A DNA stretch of 54,939 bases from a virus. Positions 6,013 to 52,431 of this stretch are shown here, one piece after another. A model generated the notes under the pieces. The model did no database searches. It worked only from the letters and a program-made list of their open reading frames with translations, and was not told the origin of the DNA. The stretch is from UHGV virus genome UHGV-0223582. One strand, 5' to 3'. The position numbers and the translations under genes are program-made. How positions within the stretch are numbered: the stretch's first letter is position 1; the number at the start of each line of letters is the position of its first letter.

Positions 6013-6086
6013 TGGAGCAGCGCACGGGTCTTGAACCCGTACCATCAGCTTTGAAAGCTGGTATGCGCCAATTACACCAGCGCTGC
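6013..6086 (-). tRNA. tRNA with Gly-type body and UCA anticodon (putative opal suppressor)
   Basis: GCAGCGC/GCGCTGC acceptor, U73, CCA, T-arm ACGGG-TTCAAGA-CCCGT, anticodon loop TT-TCA-AA (anticodon 6054-6052). Confidence 0.8.
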
Positions 6087-6462: not shown

Positions 6463-8085
6463 TTAAAACGGGCGCCGGAATACCTCCACCTTGTTCCCTT
6501 CTAGTTGCTGGACATATTCAGCAAACATTGCCCAAGCATCAGGAACATCGTCATGTTTATTTTTCCCAGCCATCGTATAGCCGCATAGGAAGTTTAGCAT
6601 CCGGCGATACTCCTTATCTTTCTTTATGATGGAATTGTCCTTAAATAAAACCCGTTCTTTTACCCACGGGGAATTTACTATGATCTTTGTCTCTTTCCCC
6701 TGTGTTGTGTATTTTGTTGTGATTTTTGCGATTCCCCCGGATTCTTTCACTTCTTTTTGAACTTTTTCTGCTATTTTACCACCAGCGCTGTTACTTTCAA
6801 ACTGACCCATCTGAGCCTTGTGTTGAAGAAGCTTTGACACTAGCCTCGCCTCTACGACCTCTGGATTGCTGTTGTCGCATACTACGTCTTCACAATAAAA
6901 GTCATTTCCGTACTGGTAACAAATCGGCATGACGCAGTAATCAGTGCCCTTGTCCTTCGTATCGCACACAAACAGAATTGCATCTGGTTTTCTATCAGGA
7001 AGCTCAAAGTACCGGCGCAGCTCATCTTCATTGTAGAGCTGTCCTTCACGCTCAATGGGCTGAGTCATGTATAGTGCCCTCCAGGAAGCATCGTCCATAA
7101 CATCTCTCTGATTGTGATAGAATGCCGTGGTAAACCCAAGCCCATACGGATAATCAAAATTGCTCTCATCGTTTTCATCCAGAGCAGGTAGGTGGATAAA
7201 CTCTGCCAATGGATCATTGGTATGCGTCAGTTCAAGCCGGTCAATGGGGTCATGCAGCGTCCATGGAGTTTGGACAAGGAGCTGGACGCAATCGCCAATC
7301 ATTCTTTGCATCATATCGGTATAATACTGTTGCCAGAGTTTATCCATCCGTTCTTTGCTCATTGCAGATTCAATATCAGGTACAAGGTCATCTGCTACCA
7401 GAAGATTAGAGGCACGAACTTTGCCCGCGTTACCAGATCCAATGGACGAAAACTCAAAGGTCTCAAACCGCTTTCGTTTTCCAAGATCAATTCGCATGTC
7501 CTGGGCGTTTGTTTTGCAAACTTGAGCAGATGGAAAAATATCTTTCCACAAATACTCCCCTTTGGGGTCTAACATCCGCCCAACTTCTTCATAAGCCCCA
7601 CGTAGGAATGAGTTTGAGTGCGAACCCATCAGAATGCTTAAATCTGGATTCTTTAACCCCTCCATCACCATGAACATCAATTCAATGGTGGTCTTCCCGA
7701 CGCCTGGGGGAGCCATAACACCCAAAATGCGTATCTTCCGTTCAGATAGCCGCTGCATGGCCTTGACAACAGGAAGTAGCTGCTTTCTGCGTGGCATATA
7801 AAACTTCTTTTTCGGCTCTCTATCCCACTCAGCATATCTTATCGCCGCATCAAAATCATACGGTGCATCAAACAGCAGACTTCGCTTATTCAGATCAAAC
7901 ATCTTGAAGCTGTTCTGCTCTTTGGCATATTTGGCCGATAGGCGGCGGACTTCCTTATTAACGCTGTGGGCTTCTTCAAAATTTTCGGATTCATACAATC
8001 TACATACATCAAACAAATCTTGCAACGCAGAGGCATCAGATAGATCTCTCTCTCTTGCTTTCTTAATCAGTTCATCAAGCTTCAC
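6463..8085 (-). CDS. terL: terminase large subunit
   Basis: 540 aa; Walker A APPGVGKT, Walker B LLVADD, nuclease VCDTKDKG.D and KHDDVPDA motifs. Confidence 0.92.
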   Translation of the reverse strand: MKLDELIKKARERDLSDASALQDLFDVCRLYESENFEEAHSVNKEVRRLSAKYAKEQNSFKMFDLNKRSLLFDAPYDFDAAIRYAEWDREPKKKFYMPRRKQLLPVVKAMQRLSERKIRILGVMAPPGVGKTTIELMFMVMEGLKNPDLSILMGSHSNSFLRGAYEEVGRMLDPKGEYLWKDIFPSAQVCKTNAQDMRIDLGKRKRFETFEFSSIGSGNAGKVRASNLLVADDLVPDIESAMSKERMDKLWQQYYTDMMQRMIGDCVQLLVQTPWTLHDPIDRLELTHTNDPLAEFIHLPALDENDESNFDYPYGLGFTTAFYHNQRDVMDDASWRALYMTQPIEREGQLYNEDELRRYFELPDRKPDAILFVCDTKDKGTDYCVMPICYQYGNDFYCEDVVCDNSNPEVVEARLVSKLLQHKAQMGQFESNSAGGKIAEKVQKEVKESGGIAKITTKYTTQGKETKIIVNSPWVKERVLFKDNSIIKKDKEYRRMLNFLCGYTMAGKNKHDDVPDAWAMFAEYVQQLEGNKVEVFRRPF

Positions 8086-8705: not shown

Positions 8706-9371
8706 TCAGGCATTATTTTGATCCAGTCCATACTTTTCTAACAACTCCCTCTTTTTCGAATCATACGCGGACTTTGCACTTTCAATAGACAGAAAACCCG
8801 TTTTTACCCAGCGTTCTCCAGAAACCTGAACGGCTACTCTGTATGTCTTGCCATTCTTTTCCAACATAACGCCACGCACACCGGTTTTGCTTCTTATCAT
8901 CGCCTTATCTGACTTCACCGCCGCAATATCCGCACGTTTTGTTCCGCCCGTTTCTACGAACTTGGCCTTAACAGCAAGATCAGAGTATTTCTTCATTTCC
9001 TCGCTTTTGTATTGCTGGCAGCCGCATCCTTTTGGCTTATTCCTTATCGTCTGCGCGGGGAACTCTTTTTCAGATCCGCACATGGAACACTTGCACAGAT
9101 ACAGCGCGTTCCTGTGCTTGTCAATTCCGGTTCGCTTTAATACAGTCAGCGCACCATAGATTTTTCCGGTAAGATCTGCTGTTTTCTCACGCTTCTTGCA
9201 TCCACAGTCTTTCTTTGGCGATTTTTTATCGGTTAACCGTTGGCCCTCCACGACGCACTCATTTCCGCATCTGCGACATATGCACCGCCAAAGCATGGCG
9301 CCTTTGGGCGAGCGCCCAGCGGGTTCTATTACTGTCAGTTCCCCAAACCTTTGGCCGATGAGGTCTTTCAT
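8706..9371 (-). CDS. homing-endonuclease-related protein with Cys-rich repeats and AP2-like DNA-binding domain
   Basis: DLIGQRFGELTV...WRCICRRCG repeats; C-terminal SKTGVRGV...GF.SIESAK.AY. Confidence 0.7.
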   Translation of the reverse strand: MKDLIGQRFGELTVIEPAGRSPKGAMLWRCICRRCGNECVVEGQRLTDKKSPKKDCGCKKREKTADLTGKIYGALTVLKRTGIDKHRNALYLCKCSMCGSEKEFPAQTIRNKPKGCGCQQYKSEEMKKYSDLAVKAKFVETGGTKRADIAAVKSDKAMIRSKTGVRGVMLEKNGKTYRVAVQVSGERWVKTGFLSIESAKSAYDSKKRELLEKYGLDQNNA

Positions 9372-9541
9372 CTTACTCACCAAAACCACCCTCTTTTTGT
9401 TTTGTGCGGCGATTTTTCAATGCGCCTTTTTTTCACGGGATTTTAGAAAGCTCTCCTTTCCAGCACATACCACTGGATCTTACTAATCCCAATCTGCTTA
9501 CAGGCGGCCTCCACTGTGATGGAGCCGTCTTTTTTTATTTT

Positions 9542-10687
9542 TTAGGATATTGTCGTTTTTGGCCTACCAGCGGTAACTTTCGGCGTGGTTAATGCCTCGT
9601 ATGGTGTCATGCCCATTTTCTTAATGCGGTAAGATACAAAAGAAAAGCTCAATCCGTATTGCTCGCACCAATCAATGGCCGACTTCGTTTCTCCATTAAT
9701 CTCCCATTCCAGTTCCCGTTTCCTGCTCCGCTTTTTGGTTGGTCTTGCGGTAAATGTATATTTCGGATGTTGATTGTTTGCTTGCGCCTTTGCATCAGTC
9801 CACCTACAATTATCTGGTGAGTACCCTTTGTCGTTATCAATTCGGTCTATTGATAAATTATCGGCATACCCATGCGACAGAGCCCAATCCCTAAACGCAA
9901 ACACATCCTCTCTCCATTCATCACAAATGTCTATTCCTCGCCCACCGTATGTTTTCCACGCATGGTTTTTGTGGTTATAACACCGCTCTTTCATTCCGCT
10001 CCAAATTCTGTATATCCTATCTTTTGATAATCCATGTGTACTAATAAGGGACTTATGATGAATACAATCTGCTTTTCCACAACTCTTTATTGTCTCATTT
10101 TCAAAAAGCACCGGATTTACTTCAACTGATCTACCGCAATCACATCTGCACACAAACATCTTTTTGCGTTTTCCAACAACGGTTAGATGGTATTTTCGAA
10201 CACCTCTCCATTTTTCTATATCAAACTTTCCTCGGTTTGTTTGGCAAATACAAACCATAGGATTTTCTCTCAACAAAAACTTTGGAGCGTGGTAATTCTC
10301 TGCACCACAAAAGGTACATCTCGTTTTCCAGCCGAATCCCGTTTTATATCCAATTATCTCCCAGCATCCAATTTTCTGCCCAATCCACTTTGGGTTGCTT
10401 GGCAAATTTTCTCTTTTAATCCTTGCGGTTTCCTTTTCCGCTGCTATTCTTTTTCTTGTTTCACACCCACAAATCCCTTGATTCTTCCCTTTCGCATAAT
10501 CTTTCCCGTTATGCGTGACTTTCTTCCTTCCGCACTTCTGACAGGTTAGCTCCCACATCTGTTTATGTGTTTCCCAATCATACCAAACACGGGTAACTTC
10601 AAAATCGCCGTACACTTTCCCGATTCTGTCAGAATAAAACTGATCCTGCATTTCAAGAACCTGTTTCTTGTTTGCCTCGTTAAACAT
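9542..10687 (-). CDS. HNH homing endonuclease-like protein
   Basis: W.GMKERC...YGGRGI.IC.EW...SIDRIDNDKGYSPDNCRW...QANN; start re-set to ATG 10687. Confidence 0.85.
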   Translation of the reverse strand: MFNEANKKQVLEMQDQFYSDRIGKVYGDFEVTRVWYDWETHKQMWELTCQKCGRKKVTHNGKDYAKGKNQGICGCETRKRIAAEKETARIKRENLPSNPKWIGQKIGCWEIIGYKTGFGWKTRCTFCGAENYHAPKFLLRENPMVCICQTNRGKFDIEKWRGVRKYHLTVVGKRKKMFVCRCDCGRSVEVNPVLFENETIKSCGKADCIHHKSLISTHGLSKDRIYRIWSGMKERCYNHKNHAWKTYGGRGIDICDEWREDVFAFRDWALSHGYADNLSIDRIDNDKGYSPDNCRWTDAKAQANNQHPKYTFTARPTKKRSRKRELEWEINGETKSAIDWCEQYGLSFSFVSYRIKKMGMTPYEALTTPKVTAGRPKTTIS

Positions 10688-11333
10688 CCCCCTTTTTGTT
10701 TCGGCTCTCCAGCGGAGGCAACCCGTGTTCCGCCCGATACTTCGCAACTGCCTTATAGTAGGTGTTTGGACGCAACCCCAACTTTTCCATCGCCCACTTG
10801 TTCGTCCTCCCATCAGACAGAACTTCTTTGTAGGCTGCATCGAAAGCCACCTCATCTATTTCAATCGGCTTTCTTCCTTTATATGCGCCTCTGTCCTTAG
10901 CAAGAGCAATCCCTTGGGCCTGCCGCTCATGCGTGTTGATTCTTTCCTTCTCAGCCACATACGAAAGAACTTTCAATACAATATCAGCAATCAGCGTTCC
11001 TGTGAGATCGTTCGTTTTCCTGGTATCCAAAATGGGCATATCCAGCACAACAATATCTGCTCCGATCTCCTTCGTGATATGTTCCCACTGTTTTCCAGTC
11101 TCAGTGTAATTTCTTCCGAGCCGGTCAAGGCTGCACACAAAAACCGTATCACCCTTTCGGATTACAGTCATCATCGCGTTCCATTTGTCCCGGTTGTAGT
11201 CCCGCCCGCTCTCTTTATCAATGAAGATGTACCGCTCCGGCACTCCGGCCTCTTTCAGCATTTTAGTCTGCCGCTCCTCATTTTGGTCTTTCGAGGACAC
11301 CCGCGCATATCCAACACAAATGCTCTCAGCCAT
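10680..11333 (-). CDS. serine recombinase (resolvase/invertase family) with C-terminal HTH
   Basis: GYARVSSKDQNEERQ, SLDRLGRN, ERQAQGIALAK..G.YKGRKP. Confidence 0.92.
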   Translation of the reverse strand: MAESICVGYARVSSKDQNEERQTKMLKEAGVPERYIFIDKESGRDYNRDKWNAMMTVIRKGDTVFVCSLDRLGRNYTETGKQWEHITKEIGADIVVLDMPILDTRKTNDLTGTLIADIVLKVLSYVAEKERINTHERQAQGIALAKDRGAYKGRKPIEIDEVAFDAAYKEVLSDGRTNKWAMEKLGLRPNTYYKAVAKYRAEHGLPPLESRNKKGDV

Positions 11334-11363
11334 CCCATCTCGCCTCCTTTTGTTTGCAAATTC

Positions 11364-11393
11364 ATTATAACAAATAATTTTGTTGTTTGTCAA
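11364..11393 (-). promoter_or_regulatory. sigma-A promoter of resolvase gene with palindrome in spacer
   Basis: TTGACA-N18-TATAAT; AACAAAATTATTTGTT in spacer. Confidence 0.6.
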
Positions 11394-11692
11394 CATGTTT
11401 TTTGCTTTTTTTAATTTTTCTGTGGTAGGGGGGCTCAGGTGGTGGGTGGCCGCCCTGTCCTATCCCCCTGGGGTGCCCGGCGGCCCGTTATCCTTGTAAT
11501 ACCTTGATTATCTGGGGTATACCCATACCAAACAGCCCACATATATATAATAATAATTTGGCACAAATCGCAACTACTCAAAAAATAAATAAAAATATTT
11601 GTAAATTCTGTTGACTACATCAAGCAAATATGTTATCATATAATCACAGCAAGGGAAACCGCGCTGAATCTACCGGGCAGGAGGTACACGAA

Positions 11693-12926: not shown

Positions 12927-13487
12927 CTATTCTTCTATCACAGATTCGGCGATCCGCTCTTCAAGCTGCTTTTGGTCGGGAGAGTCGCCGAGGGGCGTTC
13001 CAGGCGTTAGGGTGATTTCTTGGCGATCTGCATAACCAAAGTTGTTCTTCCCCAAAAAGATTGCAGAAACCGGGTTTACCTTGCCATTCAGGATGTAATA
13101 CTCCCATAAAACTTCAAGTTTTCTGTACTCTTTTTTTATCAAGTCCCTTGTCGCAGAGCTGCATTCAAGGTTTCTCCCTGCAACATCATGAGTAATTTCC
13201 CATAGTCGCCGCCTATCAAGTCCAAGCACATCAGCCATACCAGATACCTGTGGCTTTGTGTCAAAGTCGATGCAGAGTTGCCAGAACTCGTCAATTCTCT
13301 GCTTTACAGCATCCTCGTCAGAGAGGTCAACTCTATCAAATTTGTTGAGGGCTTGTATGAACATAGTCGCCTTGCTGTTATCTCCCGGCTCCGAAAGTTC
13401 ATACCCAAACTGCTGTAAGTCTGGACGGTTTCTTTTCCGTTTTACGGCCTGATCCATAGTCGTATCATTCTTGCTCAGAGTTGTCAC
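12927..13487 (-). CDS. terS: terminase small subunit (putative)
   Basis: IDEFWQLC...GMADVLGLDRRRLWE...AIFLGKNNFGYADRQE, typical of TerS/DNA-packaging gp3-like proteins. Confidence 0.75.
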   Translation of the reverse strand: MTTLSKNDTTMDQAVKRKRNRPDLQQFGYELSEPGDNSKATMFIQALNKFDRVDLSDEDAVKQRIDEFWQLCIDFDTKPQVSGMADVLGLDRRRLWEITHDVAGRNLECSSATRDLIKKEYRKLEVLWEYYILNGKVNPVSAIFLGKNNFGYADRQEITLTPGTPLGDSPDQKQLEERIAESVIEE

Positions 13488-13683: not shown

Positions 13684-13882
13684 AAATTATTCCTCCTTCG
13701 CAAATCCAAACCTCTCTCGAAGTATGGCTCCCAAGTAGGATTGCTATATTTCAATTCCCAAACACCGCCTTCATATAGTCGCTGGTCAAATATAGAGCCC
13801 CTTGATTTGTGATCCCCTGCTTTACCAGTCTGTTGTTCAAAGATTTAGGCACGTCCCCGGACCCTGCGTCTGCGGGACGACC

Positions 13883-14057
13883 TGTTTGAGCGGGTGAGGA
13901 TTTGCACCTCACATAGCCGACATTCCTACAAGCGCCCTCCGGTTTTATGAGCCACTACGGCACCCCGGCAACTATTCGGCCTTATGATATAAGCGTCTAC
14001 TATTGCTTGCAATCGCACAAGCTTTACCACAATTAGTGTCTATTCCGCCACCGCTCA
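13883..14057 (-). ncRNA. tRNA-like RNA with large internal insertions
   Basis: TGAGCGG/CCGCTCA acceptor, Leu/Ser-like GGCGGAATAG...GTAGACGC D-region, T-arm GAGG-TGCAAAT-CCTC, 3' AACA. Confidence 0.6.
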
Positions 14058-14058
14058 A

Positions 14059-14179
14059 TGGTTCCAGACCGGCCAGCATCTTTTCACCAGCCACATGGCA
14101 CATCCGGCTTAAATGGCCGTTGATGTGTGCACAGCTCCATGCGCTTAGCTTCTCGCGCTTGAATGCAGATCTGTCTGGA
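14059..14179 (-). ncRNA. acceptor-stem/ACCA-ended structured RNA
   Basis: perfect TCCAGAC/GTCTGGA 7-bp stem + ACCA, abutting neighbouring units. Confidence 0.55.
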
Positions 14180-14293
14180 TGGTTCCACCGCCCGCCTCAT
14201 GCGAGTGGCATACAAAGCCCAACACGACCCACCCAATTCTCTCCGTGTTGGATAGCAGCCCACATTCCGAAAACAGGTTGCTGCCACAATGGA
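14180..14293 (-). ncRNA. acceptor-stem/ACCA-ended structured RNA
   Basis: TCCATTG/CGGTGGA stem + ACCA, two internal hairpins, T-arm-like CTCGC-ATGAG-GCGGG. Confidence 0.5.
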
Positions 14294-14372
14294 GCCGAGA
14301 GGAGGTATTGAGCCTCCACACGTATACGGCGTTGCCATGGTCGCCGCTTCCGCTTCTGCTACAGCACTCGGC
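14290..14372 (-). ncRNA. tRNA-like RNA
   Basis: GCCGAG/CTCGGC acceptor + TCCA, T-arm GGAGG-CTCAATA-CCTCC, 10-nt loop in place of anticodon loop. Confidence 0.6.
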
Positions 14373-14382
14373 ATATTTTTGA

Positions 14383-14535
14383 CTACCTGATACAAGTACT
14401 CATAAAAATCATAAAAGACAAGTTCCAAACCATTCCAATCAGGTCATCTTTTTCCTTCGCTTTGAAGGCTAAATAAACATATACAATCATAAGGACAAGG
14501 CAGATAAATTCTGCAATGATTCTAAGCACATCCAC
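14383..14535 (-). CDS. 50-aa membrane peptide
   Basis: MDVLRIIAEFICLVLMIVYVYLAFKAKEKDDLIGMVWNLSFMIFMSTCIR, two hydrophobic segments. Confidence 0.4.
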   Translation of the reverse strand: MDVLRIIAEFICLVLMIVYVYLAFKAKEKDDLIGMVWNLSFMIFMSTCIR

Positions 14536-14540
14536 AAACT

Positions 14541-14783
14541 TTACGCCATCCAATCATAAAATCTGTTTTCAGCTATTTTGTCTCTTTTTCTTTTCAACTT
14601 GTGGTTCTCTTTTGATGCTCTTCTGTTAGCCTTGCATTGATTACAATTATTTCTATTTTTGCAGAACCAGCATCCATCCTGTCCCCACCAGTACCAATCT
14701 GGCATAGACGGTCTTGGTTTACGCTTTGCCTTTCCCATCATGCACTCCAAATTTTTTCTGGGCGCTTCCCGCTTAATTGTCAC
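14541..14783 (-). CDS. hypothetical basic Cys-rich protein
   Basis: PDWYWW..DGCWFCKNRNNCNQCK. Confidence 0.55.
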   Translation of the reverse strand: MTIKREAPRKNLECMMGKAKRKPRPSMPDWYWWGQDGCWFCKNRNNCNQCKANRRASKENHKLKRKRDKIAENRFYDWMA

Positions 14784-14907
14784 ACCATCAATCAGTCAGC
14801 TACATGCCATTCGGCGGTTCACTGTCCTACGGCAGTTTTCAGCGAGCATTGTCATTCTCTCTGAGGTGTTGCGCTACGCTCAGATCATCCGGGAGCGACC
14901 CGGCCTC

Positions 14908-15000
14908 TGGTGGAACATTGCGGTCCTGCCCCGCTTTAGCACTTAGAGCAATGTGCCCTTCGCTTGCTGTGACCTCCCCGTTTCGGGGTGCCTATGTTCC
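14908..15000 (-). ncRNA. tRNA-like RNA
   Basis: GGAACAT/ATGTTCC acceptor + ACCA, T-arm-like GCGG-GGCAGGA-CCGC, internal GAAA-tetraloop hairpin. Confidence 0.55.
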
Positions 15001-15261: not shown

Positions 15262-15365
15262 ATTATACCACAATATCTTGTGTTTGTAAATCAAATTTCA
15301 GATTTTTATATCAATATATTGTGTTTTCAGGAGTTATCAAACGCCCTCCGCACCATATCTTGTAT
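15262..15365 (-). promoter_or_regulatory. late promoter TTTACA-N17-TATAAT with three NrdR-box-like sites (15268, 15309, 15350)
   Basis: 27/29 identical to promoter at 6404-6432; boxes 41 bp apart. Confidence 0.75.
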
Positions 15366-32929: not shown

Positions 32930-33075
32930 TTGAACACGTCCTTATGTAAAAAATAAGGAGGATCGTGAGGAGGGTGGCGACGTGTACCAACCCTAAATCC
33001 CCACGTCCTCCATGCCTATATTGTCGCAGAAAAATACCCCGGCTGGGGTTGATCCCAGTCGGGGTTATGTATGAT

Positions 33076-52193: not shown

Positions 52194-52431
52194 GTATATA
52201 CCGCCTTTCTAAATTCTTGTTTTCACCTTATATGTTGACCCAGGGCAGGGGAGTAAGGTGGCACCTCCCTTTTCGGCCCGTCGACCTATCCCTGGCGTTC
52301 AACCAATGTTGTGAGAGACAGCGGGGGCATATCCCGCCATGCGTAACCTCTCAAATGGTAGATTCTAAATCAAAATCTCCGCTATCCATATATTCGGTTG
52401 TCAAGGTGCAATTTATTGGAATGGATGGAAA

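What the first reader, a model, noticed from the sequence alone, without database searches (positions are those of the whole stretch)
13883..14372. Head-to-tail array of four tRNA-shaped, NCCA-ended RNAs with unrelated interiors
Seen on the minus strand: units at 14372-14290, 14293-14180, 14179-14059 and 14057-13883. Each is closed by a 6-7 bp acceptor-like stem with a hairpin in the T-arm position and a TCCA/ACCA/ACCA/AACA tail. They abut with 0-1 nt gaps, and the TCCA tail of unit 1 is also the 5' end of unit 2, so those two would be mutually exclusive products. The interiors (83-175 nt units) are different multi-hairpin structures with no valid anticodon loop. Established: RNase P, 3' trimming and CCA-dependent enzymes recognise acceptor stem plus T-arm, as in tmRNA and bacterial Y RNAs. 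Inference: a polycistronic cassette that uses tRNA mimicry to excise stable functional small RNAs, for example decoys for anticodon nucleases or tRNA-sensing defences, or scaffolds. I do not recognise it as a described family.
Basis: partly seen in the sequence, partly recalled or inferred. Interest (0 to 1): 0.85.

Follow-up and report, generated by a model that had tools for sequence, protein, structure and literature searches.

The report
Phage tRNA frames carrying swappable RNAs
A gut-bacterial phage carries a row of tRNA-shaped genes that lack a codon-reading loop; one belongs to a large family, unannotated in the databases searched, whose conserved tRNA frame holds interchangeable folded inserts, and the row is likely cut into separate stable RNAs by the host's tRNA-processing enzymes.

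Summary
The four units and their spacing are real. They end a promoter-led noncoding operon just upstream of the packaging genes of a temperate phage whose host is probably Oscillospiraceae. They are separate modules, shuffled among related phages together with canonical tRNAs.

- Unit 4 is a tRNA-Leu-derived frame (7-bp acceptor, 6-bp T stem, no anticodon arm, CCA not encoded). It belongs to a large family: about 1,600 IMG/VR stretches share its D arm; 75 of 116 sampled have the full frame, with 69 different interiors. Its own insert is conserved with compensatory changes.
- Unit 3 has a covarying closing stem but folds by consensus as a three-way junction, not a cloverleaf.
- Unit 1 is a conserved CCA-ended pseudo-cloverleaf.
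- Unit 2 is weak: near-identical phages only, with a 3' end derived from a stand-alone minihelix, so 'mutually exclusive products' is unproven.
- A fifth unit lies upstream.

There is no Rfam match. These are not decaying tRNAs or introns, and anticodon decoys are unlikely. Best reading: natural tRNA scaffolds displaying exchangeable RNA cargo. Expression and function are untested. This scan earlier noted similar designs in other phages.

The parts
15262..15290 (-). Sigma-70-type promoter (TTTACA-17-TATAAT, extended -10), predicted start of the noncoding operon
   Evidence: 11 of 12 matches; region conserved in L004, L036, L062
15078..15135 (-). Small closed module with a T-arm-like hairpin; likely another processed unit
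   Evidence: fold; homologues in L001, L086, L097, L123; not studied further
14908..15000 (-).
   Evidence: (z -3.6), 112: 38 distinct copies, covarying stem, ACCA in 31, ATAT leader in 21; a canonical tRNA-Thr sits in this slot in L062
14760..14907 (-). Recurring structured element with a conserved internal loop (TGAAAACT / GACAAT(C)TAAG) and a variable insert of 18-93 nt
   Evidence: no Rfam match
14383..14783 (-). Two small ORFs (80 aa, 56 aa) interrupting the RNA array
   Evidence: no PHROG family and no Pfam match above cut-off
14290..14372 (-). Unit 1: pseudo-cloverleaf. 6-bp acceptor + U.U + 5-bp T stem, irregular D region, 8-11-nt loop at the anticodon position, UCCA end, ATAT leader
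   Evidence: 98.6% of cells paired, 2 of 16 pairs with two-sided change; 31 distinct copies, leader ATAT in 30, homology ends at CCA
14180..14293 (-). Unit 2 (doubtful as one closed RNA): two hairpins plus a shortened copy of a stand-alone CCA-ended minihelix (about 14214-14180)
   Evidence: 8 near-identical contigs; minihelix 30 distinct copies
14059..14179 (-). Unit 3: 7-bp closing stem extended by a second helix into a three-way junction with a variable arm; ACCA here
   Evidence: 15 of 24 pairs with two-sided change; 42 of 46 copies start directly after a CCA
13887..14057 (-). Unit 4: tRNA-Leu-derived frame. 7-bp acceptor (14057-14051/13893-13887), Leu-type D arm, 6-bp T stem (13912-13894) with UGCAAAU loop, CCA not encoded
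14001..14039 (-). 39-nt insert in unit 4's D loop; an optional, exchangeable slot
   Evidence: 59 of 83 distinct frames lack it; 8 insert classes
13913..13992 (-). 80-nt cargo replacing unit 4's anticodon and variable arms; conserved in distant phages
   Evidence: 15 of 15 metagenome hits lie inside a frame; 9 of 15 cargo pairs with two-sided change
13845..13882 (-). GC-rich hairpin module after unit 4
12927..13487 (-). Probable terminase small subunit (context only)
   Evidence: Pfam GP3_package E 5e-5, below cut-off; terminase large subunit at 6463-8085

Best explanation
The array is the 3' part of a modular phage noncoding operon whose tRNA-derived frames are likely cut out by host tRNA-processing enzymes as stable non-decoding RNAs, with unit 4's frame carrying an exchangeable folded insert that probably acts by binding a host protein.

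Shown: conserved closing stems, modules shuffled as units at CCA boundaries, a shared ATAT leader, loss of the anticodon arm, and a near-constant tRNA-Leu core around many unrelated inserts, some of them conserved with covariation.

Inferred: transcription from the 15290 promoter; 5' cleavage by RNase P and 3' maturation by RNase Z or exonucleases plus the CCA-adding enzyme (about 0.75); exclusion from translation; and a role as ligands or decoys for host factors, most plausibly defence proteins that act on tRNA acceptor ends or the elbow (about 0.35-0.4).
For: Covariation. u3: 15 of 24 pairs, including 7 of 7 closing pairs, against a shuffled mean of 8.7 and 3-6 when slid. u4 family in GTDB: 18 of 27 distinct strand pairs form 6 of 6 pairs, against 2.3 shuffled, max 9.

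Independent anchors. The T-arm-only scan found a D-arm-like anchor upstream in 38 of 43 matches. The D-arm-only scan gave 75 full frames, 15 imperfect, 12 apparent T-loop-insert forms and 7 tRNA-Leu among 116.

Core retained. U48 opposite A15 in 75 of 75; C56 in 73 of 75; A58 in 75 of 75.

Exchange. 15 unrelated interiors and 5 D-loop inserts occur in one near-identical frame and assort independently. 151 distinct interiors fall into 99 classes.

Cargo under selection. The window's cargo recurs in L479, found without using it, and covaries at 9 of 15 pairs.

Processing grammar. ATAT leader in u1 30 of 31, minihelix 21 of 30, u0 21 of 38, canonical tRNAs of these loci 13 of 46; u3 starts right after a CCA in 42 of 46.

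Precedent. An engineered scaffold of acceptor, D and T arms stabilises inserted RNAs (PMC3753655, passages). RNase P and CCA addition act on M. smegmatis YrlA (PMC4201824, passages).
Against: No expression or end-mapping data were obtained. In the whole-cassette fold u1 and u2 mispair with each other, and their own stems and u4's D stem have probability 0.0. u1's covariation is thin: 2 of 16 pairs, reached by 17 of 500 shuffles. Interiors are only weakly more stable than shuffles (median z -0.69; 10 of 67 below -2), and one frame has an 8-nt interior (L533), so cargo is not required. Most cargo classes are singletons, so selection on them is not shown. The invariance of the cargo's 3' loop is built in by the search pattern. 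By eye, 3 of the 15 cargo-bearing frames keep four or fewer acceptor pairs. The 13-bp acceptor/T branch is not RNase P's usual 12 bp (recalled). No partner protein recurs beside the frame, and nothing here identifies a target.
Confidence: 0.55

Rival explanations
1. The frame itself is the working part: an uncharged elbow or acceptor-end mimic that titrates a host tRNA-binding factor. The inserts only need to fold out of the way and drift or recombine freely.
For: Interiors run from 8 to 199 nt, with 69 classes among 75 and weak folding z-scores. The T loop is UGCAAAU in 64 of 75 (partly favoured by my scoring). A bare CCA-ended minihelix is a common module.
Against: Several cargo classes recur in diverged phages with conserved unpaired motifs and compensated helices. 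Position 73 is not conserved (A 38, U 18, C 10, G 9).
Confidence: 0.22
2. The units are trans-acting antisense RNAs matured by RNase P, like C4 of P1/P7 or CI of P4 (recalled).
For: A temperate phage, RNase P-type leaders and exposed loops.
Against: The longest perfect matches elsewhere in the window are 10-13 nt, against shuffled means of 11-11.7. Host targets and short seed pairings were not tested.
Confidence: 0.08
3. They are decaying or recombination-scrambled tRNA genes with no present function.
For: u2 looks like a recent chimera with a deleted minihelix. Broken and fused modules occur (L221, L376, L409).
Against: Two-sided compensation in u0, u3, u4 and the cargo. A fixed 7/6 geometry across Bacillota phages, cultured ones included.
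Confidence: 0.06
4. The inserts are introns, and splicing restores a decoding tRNA-Leu.
For: The frame has the D arm of tRNA-Leu. Introns in phage tRNAs have been reported for Lak phages (10.1101/356790, passages).
Against: A single deletion restores an anticodon arm in 1 of 67 interiors, against 0.68 in shuffles, and not in the window's unit. The 6-bp T stem and G55 would remain.
Confidence: 0.03
5. They are decoys for anticodon nucleases (one of the first reader's examples).
For: They sit among phage tRNAs. 4 of 75 interiors hold an anticodon-like hairpin somewhere.
Against: A canonical anticodon arm in 1 of 75 frames. u1's loop is 8-11 nt and variable.
Confidence: 0.05

Closest known systems
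Bacterial and phage tRNA-Leu (class II; Rfam RF00005)
   Same: Unit 4's family shares the D arm with 7 tRNA-Leu (TAA/TAG) genes from the same scan, plus A15/U48, C56 and A58.
   Different: No anticodon arm, a 6-bp T stem, G at position 55, variable position 73, inserts in up to three places; missed by ARAGORN and below Rfam's cut-off.
Engineered tRNA scaffold (Ponchon and Dardel; PMC3753655, passages read)
   Same: Acceptor, D and T arms kept; a foreign RNA replaces the anticodon stem-loop.
   Different: Artificial. Here the design is natural, has a 7/6 branch, a second slot in the D loop, and many exchanged cargos.
T4 RNAC and RNAD (PMC3014915, PMC9697503, passages read)
   Same: Small RNAs of unknown role encoded in a phage tRNA region; RNAC expression was validated by Northern blot in T4.
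   Different: No sequence or structure comparison was made; the passages describe no cargo exchange.
Bacterial Y RNA YrlA (RF02553; PMC4201824, passages read)
   Same: A tRNA-like domain with D and T arms and a Levitt pair; found in phages; one member is cut by RNase P and receives CCA.
   Different: In YrlA the acceptor stem is an internal hairpin and the gene lies beside Ro60. Here the acceptor stem closes the molecule; no Rfam match.
Allo-tRNAs and polycistrons of irregular tRNAs (Mukai et al., PMC5389517, passages read)
   Same: Polycistrons of non-canonical tRNA-like RNAs, some charged but apparently not used in translation.
   Different: Those have 12-bp branches (8/4, 9/3, 7/5) and anticodons; these have no anticodon, and unit 4 has 7/6.
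tmRNA (RF00023)
   Same: Acceptor stem plus T arm around a non-tRNA interior.
   Different: No tag frame, no G3.U70, much shorter; unit 4 keeps a D stem.
ROOL and GOLLD (PMC5737381; 10.1101/2024.12.08.627333; passages read)
   Same: Structured RNAs of unknown function in phage tRNA islands; a ROOL gene lies directly upstream of a frame in L545.
   Different: Much larger and not tRNA-shaped; no Rfam match to these units.

Membership tests
Canonical tRNA (RF00005) | 5-bp anticodon stem with a 7-nt loop, U33, purine 37 | tested here: not met
   1 of 75 frames against 7 of 7 tRNA-Leu controls; u1 loop 8-11 nt
Canonical tRNA (RF00005) | 7/5 acceptor/T geometry | tested here: not met
   u4 family is 7/6; u1 is 6 + U.U + 5; u3 has no consensus T arm
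Canonical tRNA (RF00005) | Core nucleotides U8, A14, G18/G19, 15:48, C56, A58 | tested here: met
   u4 family only: U48 75 of 75, C56 73 of 75, A58 75 of 75; the D-arm positions were fixed by the query; G18/G19 are split by the D-loop insert in the window's copy
Canonical tRNA (RF00005) | Score above the Rfam cut-off or an ARAGORN call | tested here: not met
   best 26 bits against a cut-off of 29, for the 23-nt-interior copy L472
Canonical tRNA (RF00005) | Aminoacylation and EF-Tu delivery | not testable with these tools
   position 73 is variable in the u4 family, which argues against one synthetase identity
tmRNA | Ala identity G3.U70, tag frame, model match | tested here: not met
   third pair is C-G (u1-u3) or A-U (u4) in the sequence; no tmRNA call at the locus
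YrlA Y RNA | Acceptor stem as an internal hairpin between T and D arms; RF02553 match | tested here: not met
   closing stems are terminal; no match
YrlA Y RNA | Adjacent Ro60/TROVE gene | tested here: inconclusive
   none among 12 window proteins (PHROGs) and 6 (Pfam); the other ORFs were not scanned
Intron-containing tRNA | Removing one segment restores an anticodon arm | tested here: not met
   1 of 67 against 0.68 shuffled
C4/CI-type antisense RNA (recalled) | Loops complementary to sites in the phage's own transcripts | tested here: inconclusive
   no long perfect match above chance; short bipartite seeds not tested
Allo-tRNA / irregular tRNA polycistrons | 12-bp branch with 8/4 or 9/3 split and an anticodon | tested here: not met
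   7/6 branch, no anticodon (definition)
T4 RNAC/RNAD-type stable RNAs | Discrete stable RNA from a phage tRNA region | not testable with these tools
   the location fits; no RNA data
RNase P substrate | Cleavage 5' of the acceptor stem | not testable with these tools
   inferred from the shared ATAT leader and 0-nt spacing

The most novel reading that the evidence does not exclude
Phages run a natural RNA display system: one tRNA-Leu-derived frame, present in over a thousand phage contigs, serves as a standard processing and stability cassette into which dozens of unrelated RNA aptamers are swapped. Each aptamer neutralises a different host defence or regulatory protein, making this an RNA counterpart of anti-defence protein hotspots.
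Probability: 0.28. Interest if true: 0.92.

Novelty: new variant of a known kind. Interest (0 to 1): 0.72.

Why it matters
It points to a large phage RNA family that Rfam and GenBank annotation miss. An estimated 1,600 IMG/VR stretches carry its D-arm 20-mer, and about 88% of a 116-sequence sample were frames rather than tRNA-Leu. Copies sit unannotated in cultured phages that can be handled in laboratory hosts (Bacillus phages phi3T and Grass, Leuconostoc phage LN34). The role of tRNA-like RNAs in phage tRNA regions, open since T4 RNAC and RNAD, can therefore be tested by deletion and cargo swap. The frame also supplies a ready list of about 100 candidate structured RNAs, and it shows a natural version of the engineered tRNA scaffold.

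Tried and rejected
Rfam. Nothing over the units in the window, in 22 array loci, 20 GTDB loci or 40 further loci.

Ribozyme and T-box resemblances of unit 3 and of the 14907-14760 element were considered from recall only; no model matched, so they were dropped.

Deeper homologues of u2. None: 7 of 15 pattern hits were chance, and 1 of 401 genomes matched only the 24-nt 3' end.

Covariance models. The u3 model found 0 of 151 genomes (no positive control among them) and one new copy in 97 loci plus the window. The u1 model found 3 of 151 genomes, two of them known beforehand. The units look accessory rather than core host genes.

Intron, antisense and anticodon-decoy readings were tested and not supported.

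Shared protein partner. None: 66 of 109 candidate ORFs from 35 GTDB loci were scanned, 26 loci had a phage-family hit, and the most repeated was a transcriptional activator in 4 loci.

Lack of encoded CCA as evidence against a CCA end. Rejected as weak, because canonical tRNAs in the D-arm loci encode CCA in only 16 of 57 (35 of 46 in the array loci).

Searches used a range of L449 that held only the T arm and are uninformative.

Literature. Ten full-text searches showed no description of this family. Motif and contig look-ups in the readable supplements of PMC8040213 and PMC10690425 were empty, but their alignment archives and the supplement of PMC5737381 could not be read, so parts may be among their unnamed candidates.

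No RNA sequencing data were examined.

Full report
Setting. The window is a temperate phage or prophage. It has a primase/helicase, a RusA-like resolvase, a probable terminase small subunit (12927-13487; Pfam E 5e-5, below cut-off) and a terminase large subunit. No host genome is held. Unit 1 matches Flavonifractor phage Castelnaud, and a F. plautii contig carries unit 4's frame, so an Oscillospiraceae host is inferred. A near-consensus sigma-70 promoter at 15290-15262 heads about 1.4 kb of mostly noncoding sequence that ends with the four units.

Observation. Coordinates, closing stems and spacing are as reported. ARAGORN and Rfam see nothing there. The sequence alone does not carry the claim: a loose stem/T-hairpin/CCA scan gave 59 rows in the window, and fold z-scores are -1.3, 0.0, -2.1 and -2.2. 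In the whole-cassette fold u3 and u4 close (p 0.75-1.0), whereas u1 and u2 mispair with each other. Homologues decide the matter, and they treat the four units differently.

The operon is modular. Loci fetched through the terminase gene and unit patterns show the same parts in different orders, mixed with canonical tRNAs. A tRNA-Thr occupies the slot of a fifth unit, u0 (15000-14908), in L062. u0 has 38 distinct copies, a covarying 7-bp stem, and ACCA in 31. Homology of u1 stops at its CCA. An ATAT leader precedes u1 in 30 of 31 distinct copies, a stand-alone minihelix in 21 of 30, u0 in 21 of 38 and canonical tRNAs of these loci in 13 of 46. u3 begins directly after a CCA in 42 of 46. This fits RNase P maturation (U at -1 and an A-rich leader; recalled) but does not show it.

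Unit 1. Across 13 chosen homologues 98.6% of cells pair, but only 2 of 16 pairs change on both sides. The loop at the anticodon position is 8-11 nt. One copy (L172) has a near-canonical T loop, which suggests tRNA ancestry. A model found it in 3 of 151 genomes of the family, two already known.

Unit 2. Eight of 15 pattern hits were real and all near-identical; 401 genomes gave only a 24-nt match to the 3' end. That 3' end is the minihelix with about 5 nt deleted and its leader largely kept. In L062 it folds as its own 9-bp hairpin. The minihelix already contains TGG, which pairs with any upstream CCA, and the rest of the stem is rich in G-U pairs. In favour of the stem, one base differs from the minihelix in the way that pairs with u1's discriminator, and one one-sided change in L062 improves it. 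I put u2 as a closed unit at about even odds. The 'mutually exclusive' idea is unproven, and u2 follows u1 in only 3 of 31 contexts.

Unit 3. The scan gave 98 stretches. Among 46 distinct copies, 38 have 7 of 7 closing pairs over very different sequences. On 12 diverse homologues 15 of 24 pairs change on both sides, against 8.7 shuffled and 3-6 when slid (the structure was derived from the same alignment). The consensus is a long interrupted stem leading to a three-way junction with an invariant short hairpin and a variable arm. The tail is NCCA in 8 of 46 and NCC in 40.

Unit 4. In IMG/VR one near-identical frame carries 15 unrelated interiors and 5 optional D-loop inserts, which assort independently. 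A GTDB scan using only the T arm gave 43 matches at 42 loci, and 38 had a D-arm-like anchor upstream. Of 27 distinct acceptor strand pairs, 18 pair fully at 6 positions, against 2.3 shuffled; three anchors were mis-picked and count as misses. Record titles span Clostridia, Bacilli and a few bins of other phyla. Of 35 loci scanned, 26 had phage-family genes nearby, with no common partner (66 of 109 ORFs given).

A scan using only the D arm gave an estimated 1,600 stretches; 120 were fetched and 116 were distinct. These were 7 tRNA-Leu, 75 full frames, 15 imperfect frames, 12 apparent T-loop-insert forms, 3 other and 4 unresolved. A paired 6-bp T stem and at least 5 acceptor pairs were my class criteria. 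Not imposed were: pairing at acceptor positions 6, 7 and 8 from the inside (72, 69 and 41 of 75), U48 (75 of 75), variable position 73 and CCA (3 of 75). The T loop is UGCAAAU in 64, partly favoured by my scoring. A canonical anticodon arm occurs in 1 of 75 against 7 of 7 controls, and the interiors fall into 69 classes; all 151 distinct interiors give 99 classes. Frames lie unannotated in phi3T, Grass (inside its tRNA cluster), LN34, B054 and API480.

The cargo. The window's 80-nt interior has a diverged relative in L479, found without using it. A metagenome scan with a cargo 20-mer gave 15 hits, several redundant, all inside a frame. By eye, three keep four or fewer acceptor pairs. In 12 aligned copies, 9 of 15 cargo pairs and 4 of 6 T-stem pairs change on both sides. 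The invariant 3' loop is imposed by the pattern, but invariant positions in the 5' half are not. Against a general role for cargo: interiors are only mildly stable (median z -0.69), most classes are singletons, and one frame has 8 nt.

Mechanism. Shown: structure, conservation, modularity, loss of decoding. Inferred: one transcript, cut by RNase P and matured at the 3' side by RNase Z or exonucleases with CCA addition, giving stable RNAs outside translation. The frame works like the engineered tRNA scaffold. I commit to cargo and junctions acting as protein ligands or decoys. The reasons are rapid exchange of individually conserved inserts and free acceptor ends of the kind that tRNA-end-modifying toxins attack (recalled). 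This last step is at about 0.35-0.4, and the frame-only rival is at 0.22. Intron, long antisense and anticodon-decoy readings found no support.

Comparison and novelty. The units are not members of tRNA, tmRNA, YrlA or allo-tRNA by the features tested. The kind 'tRNA-like RNA of unknown role in a phage tRNA region' is known: T4 RNAC and RNAD, YrlA and polycistrons of irregular tRNAs. All papers were seen as passages only. Ten searches and the readable supplements of two candidate-RNA surveys showed no description of this 7/6 frame family. Their alignment archives and the supplement of PMC5737381 were unreadable and may hold parts of it. Earlier notes of this scan describe similar cargo-bearing tRNA shells in other phages. 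They supplied literature leads, are not independent support, and were not shown to be the same family; the search with the window's own sequence returned nothing.

Verdict. The feature is real and is a new variant of a known kind. The main value is unit 4's large, testable family. Expression and function remain untested. Interest 0.72.

Noticed in passing
window 6013-6086 (-): A 74-nt tRNA with anticodon UCA and U73, called tRNA-SeC by ARAGORN but without a long variable arm, so possibly an opal suppressor. The 91-base stretch is 99-100% identical in 5 of 5 handles searched, two of which are the same record.
   Followed up: partly
window 14760-14907 (-): A recurring internal-loop element with a variable insert, present once or twice in most arrays; no Rfam family.
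   Followed up: partly
L004 about 1875-1925: A sequence with the hammerhead core motifs (recalled consensus) inside a related array; not matched by Rfam at the gathering score.
   Followed up: no
L228, L152, L086 and others: A stand-alone 36-nt minihelix ending in ACCA with an ATAT leader: 30 distinct flanked copies.
   Followed up: partly
L002 3191-3283: A tRNA with canonical acceptor, D and T arms but a replaced anticodon arm, abutting tRNA-Trp: a second, 7/5-type frame.
   Followed up: no
L147 about 2007-2110: A cargo related to unit 4's class-4 interior, closed by an acceptor-like stem but without D and T arms; a possible pseudoknot covaries.
   Followed up: no
L545 1-482: A ROOL RNA ends about 12 nt upstream of a frame.
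   Followed up: no
L533 493-560: A frame with only 8 nt between the D and T arms: a natural tRNA lacking both anticodon and variable arms.
   Followed up: partly
L467, L499, L522, L576 and others: 12 of 116 D-arm loci appear to carry an insert in the T loop, a third slot; not verified.
   Followed up: no
window 14317-14305 with 14229-14218 (-): u1's T arm can pair with u2's second hairpin strand (12 bp, several G-U), which dominates the predicted fold of the precursor. It could be a switch or chance.
   Followed up: no
window 32957-33011 and 52226-52296 (-): RAGATH-31 and int-alpA Rfam matches.
   Followed up: no
L223 1050-1113; L588 2866-2931: DUF3800-VIII RNA near a unit-3 homologue, and near the frame in phi3T.
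   Followed up: no
window 8706-11396 (-): Two HNH endonuclease-like genes and a DNA invertase between the two terminase subunit genes.
   Followed up: no
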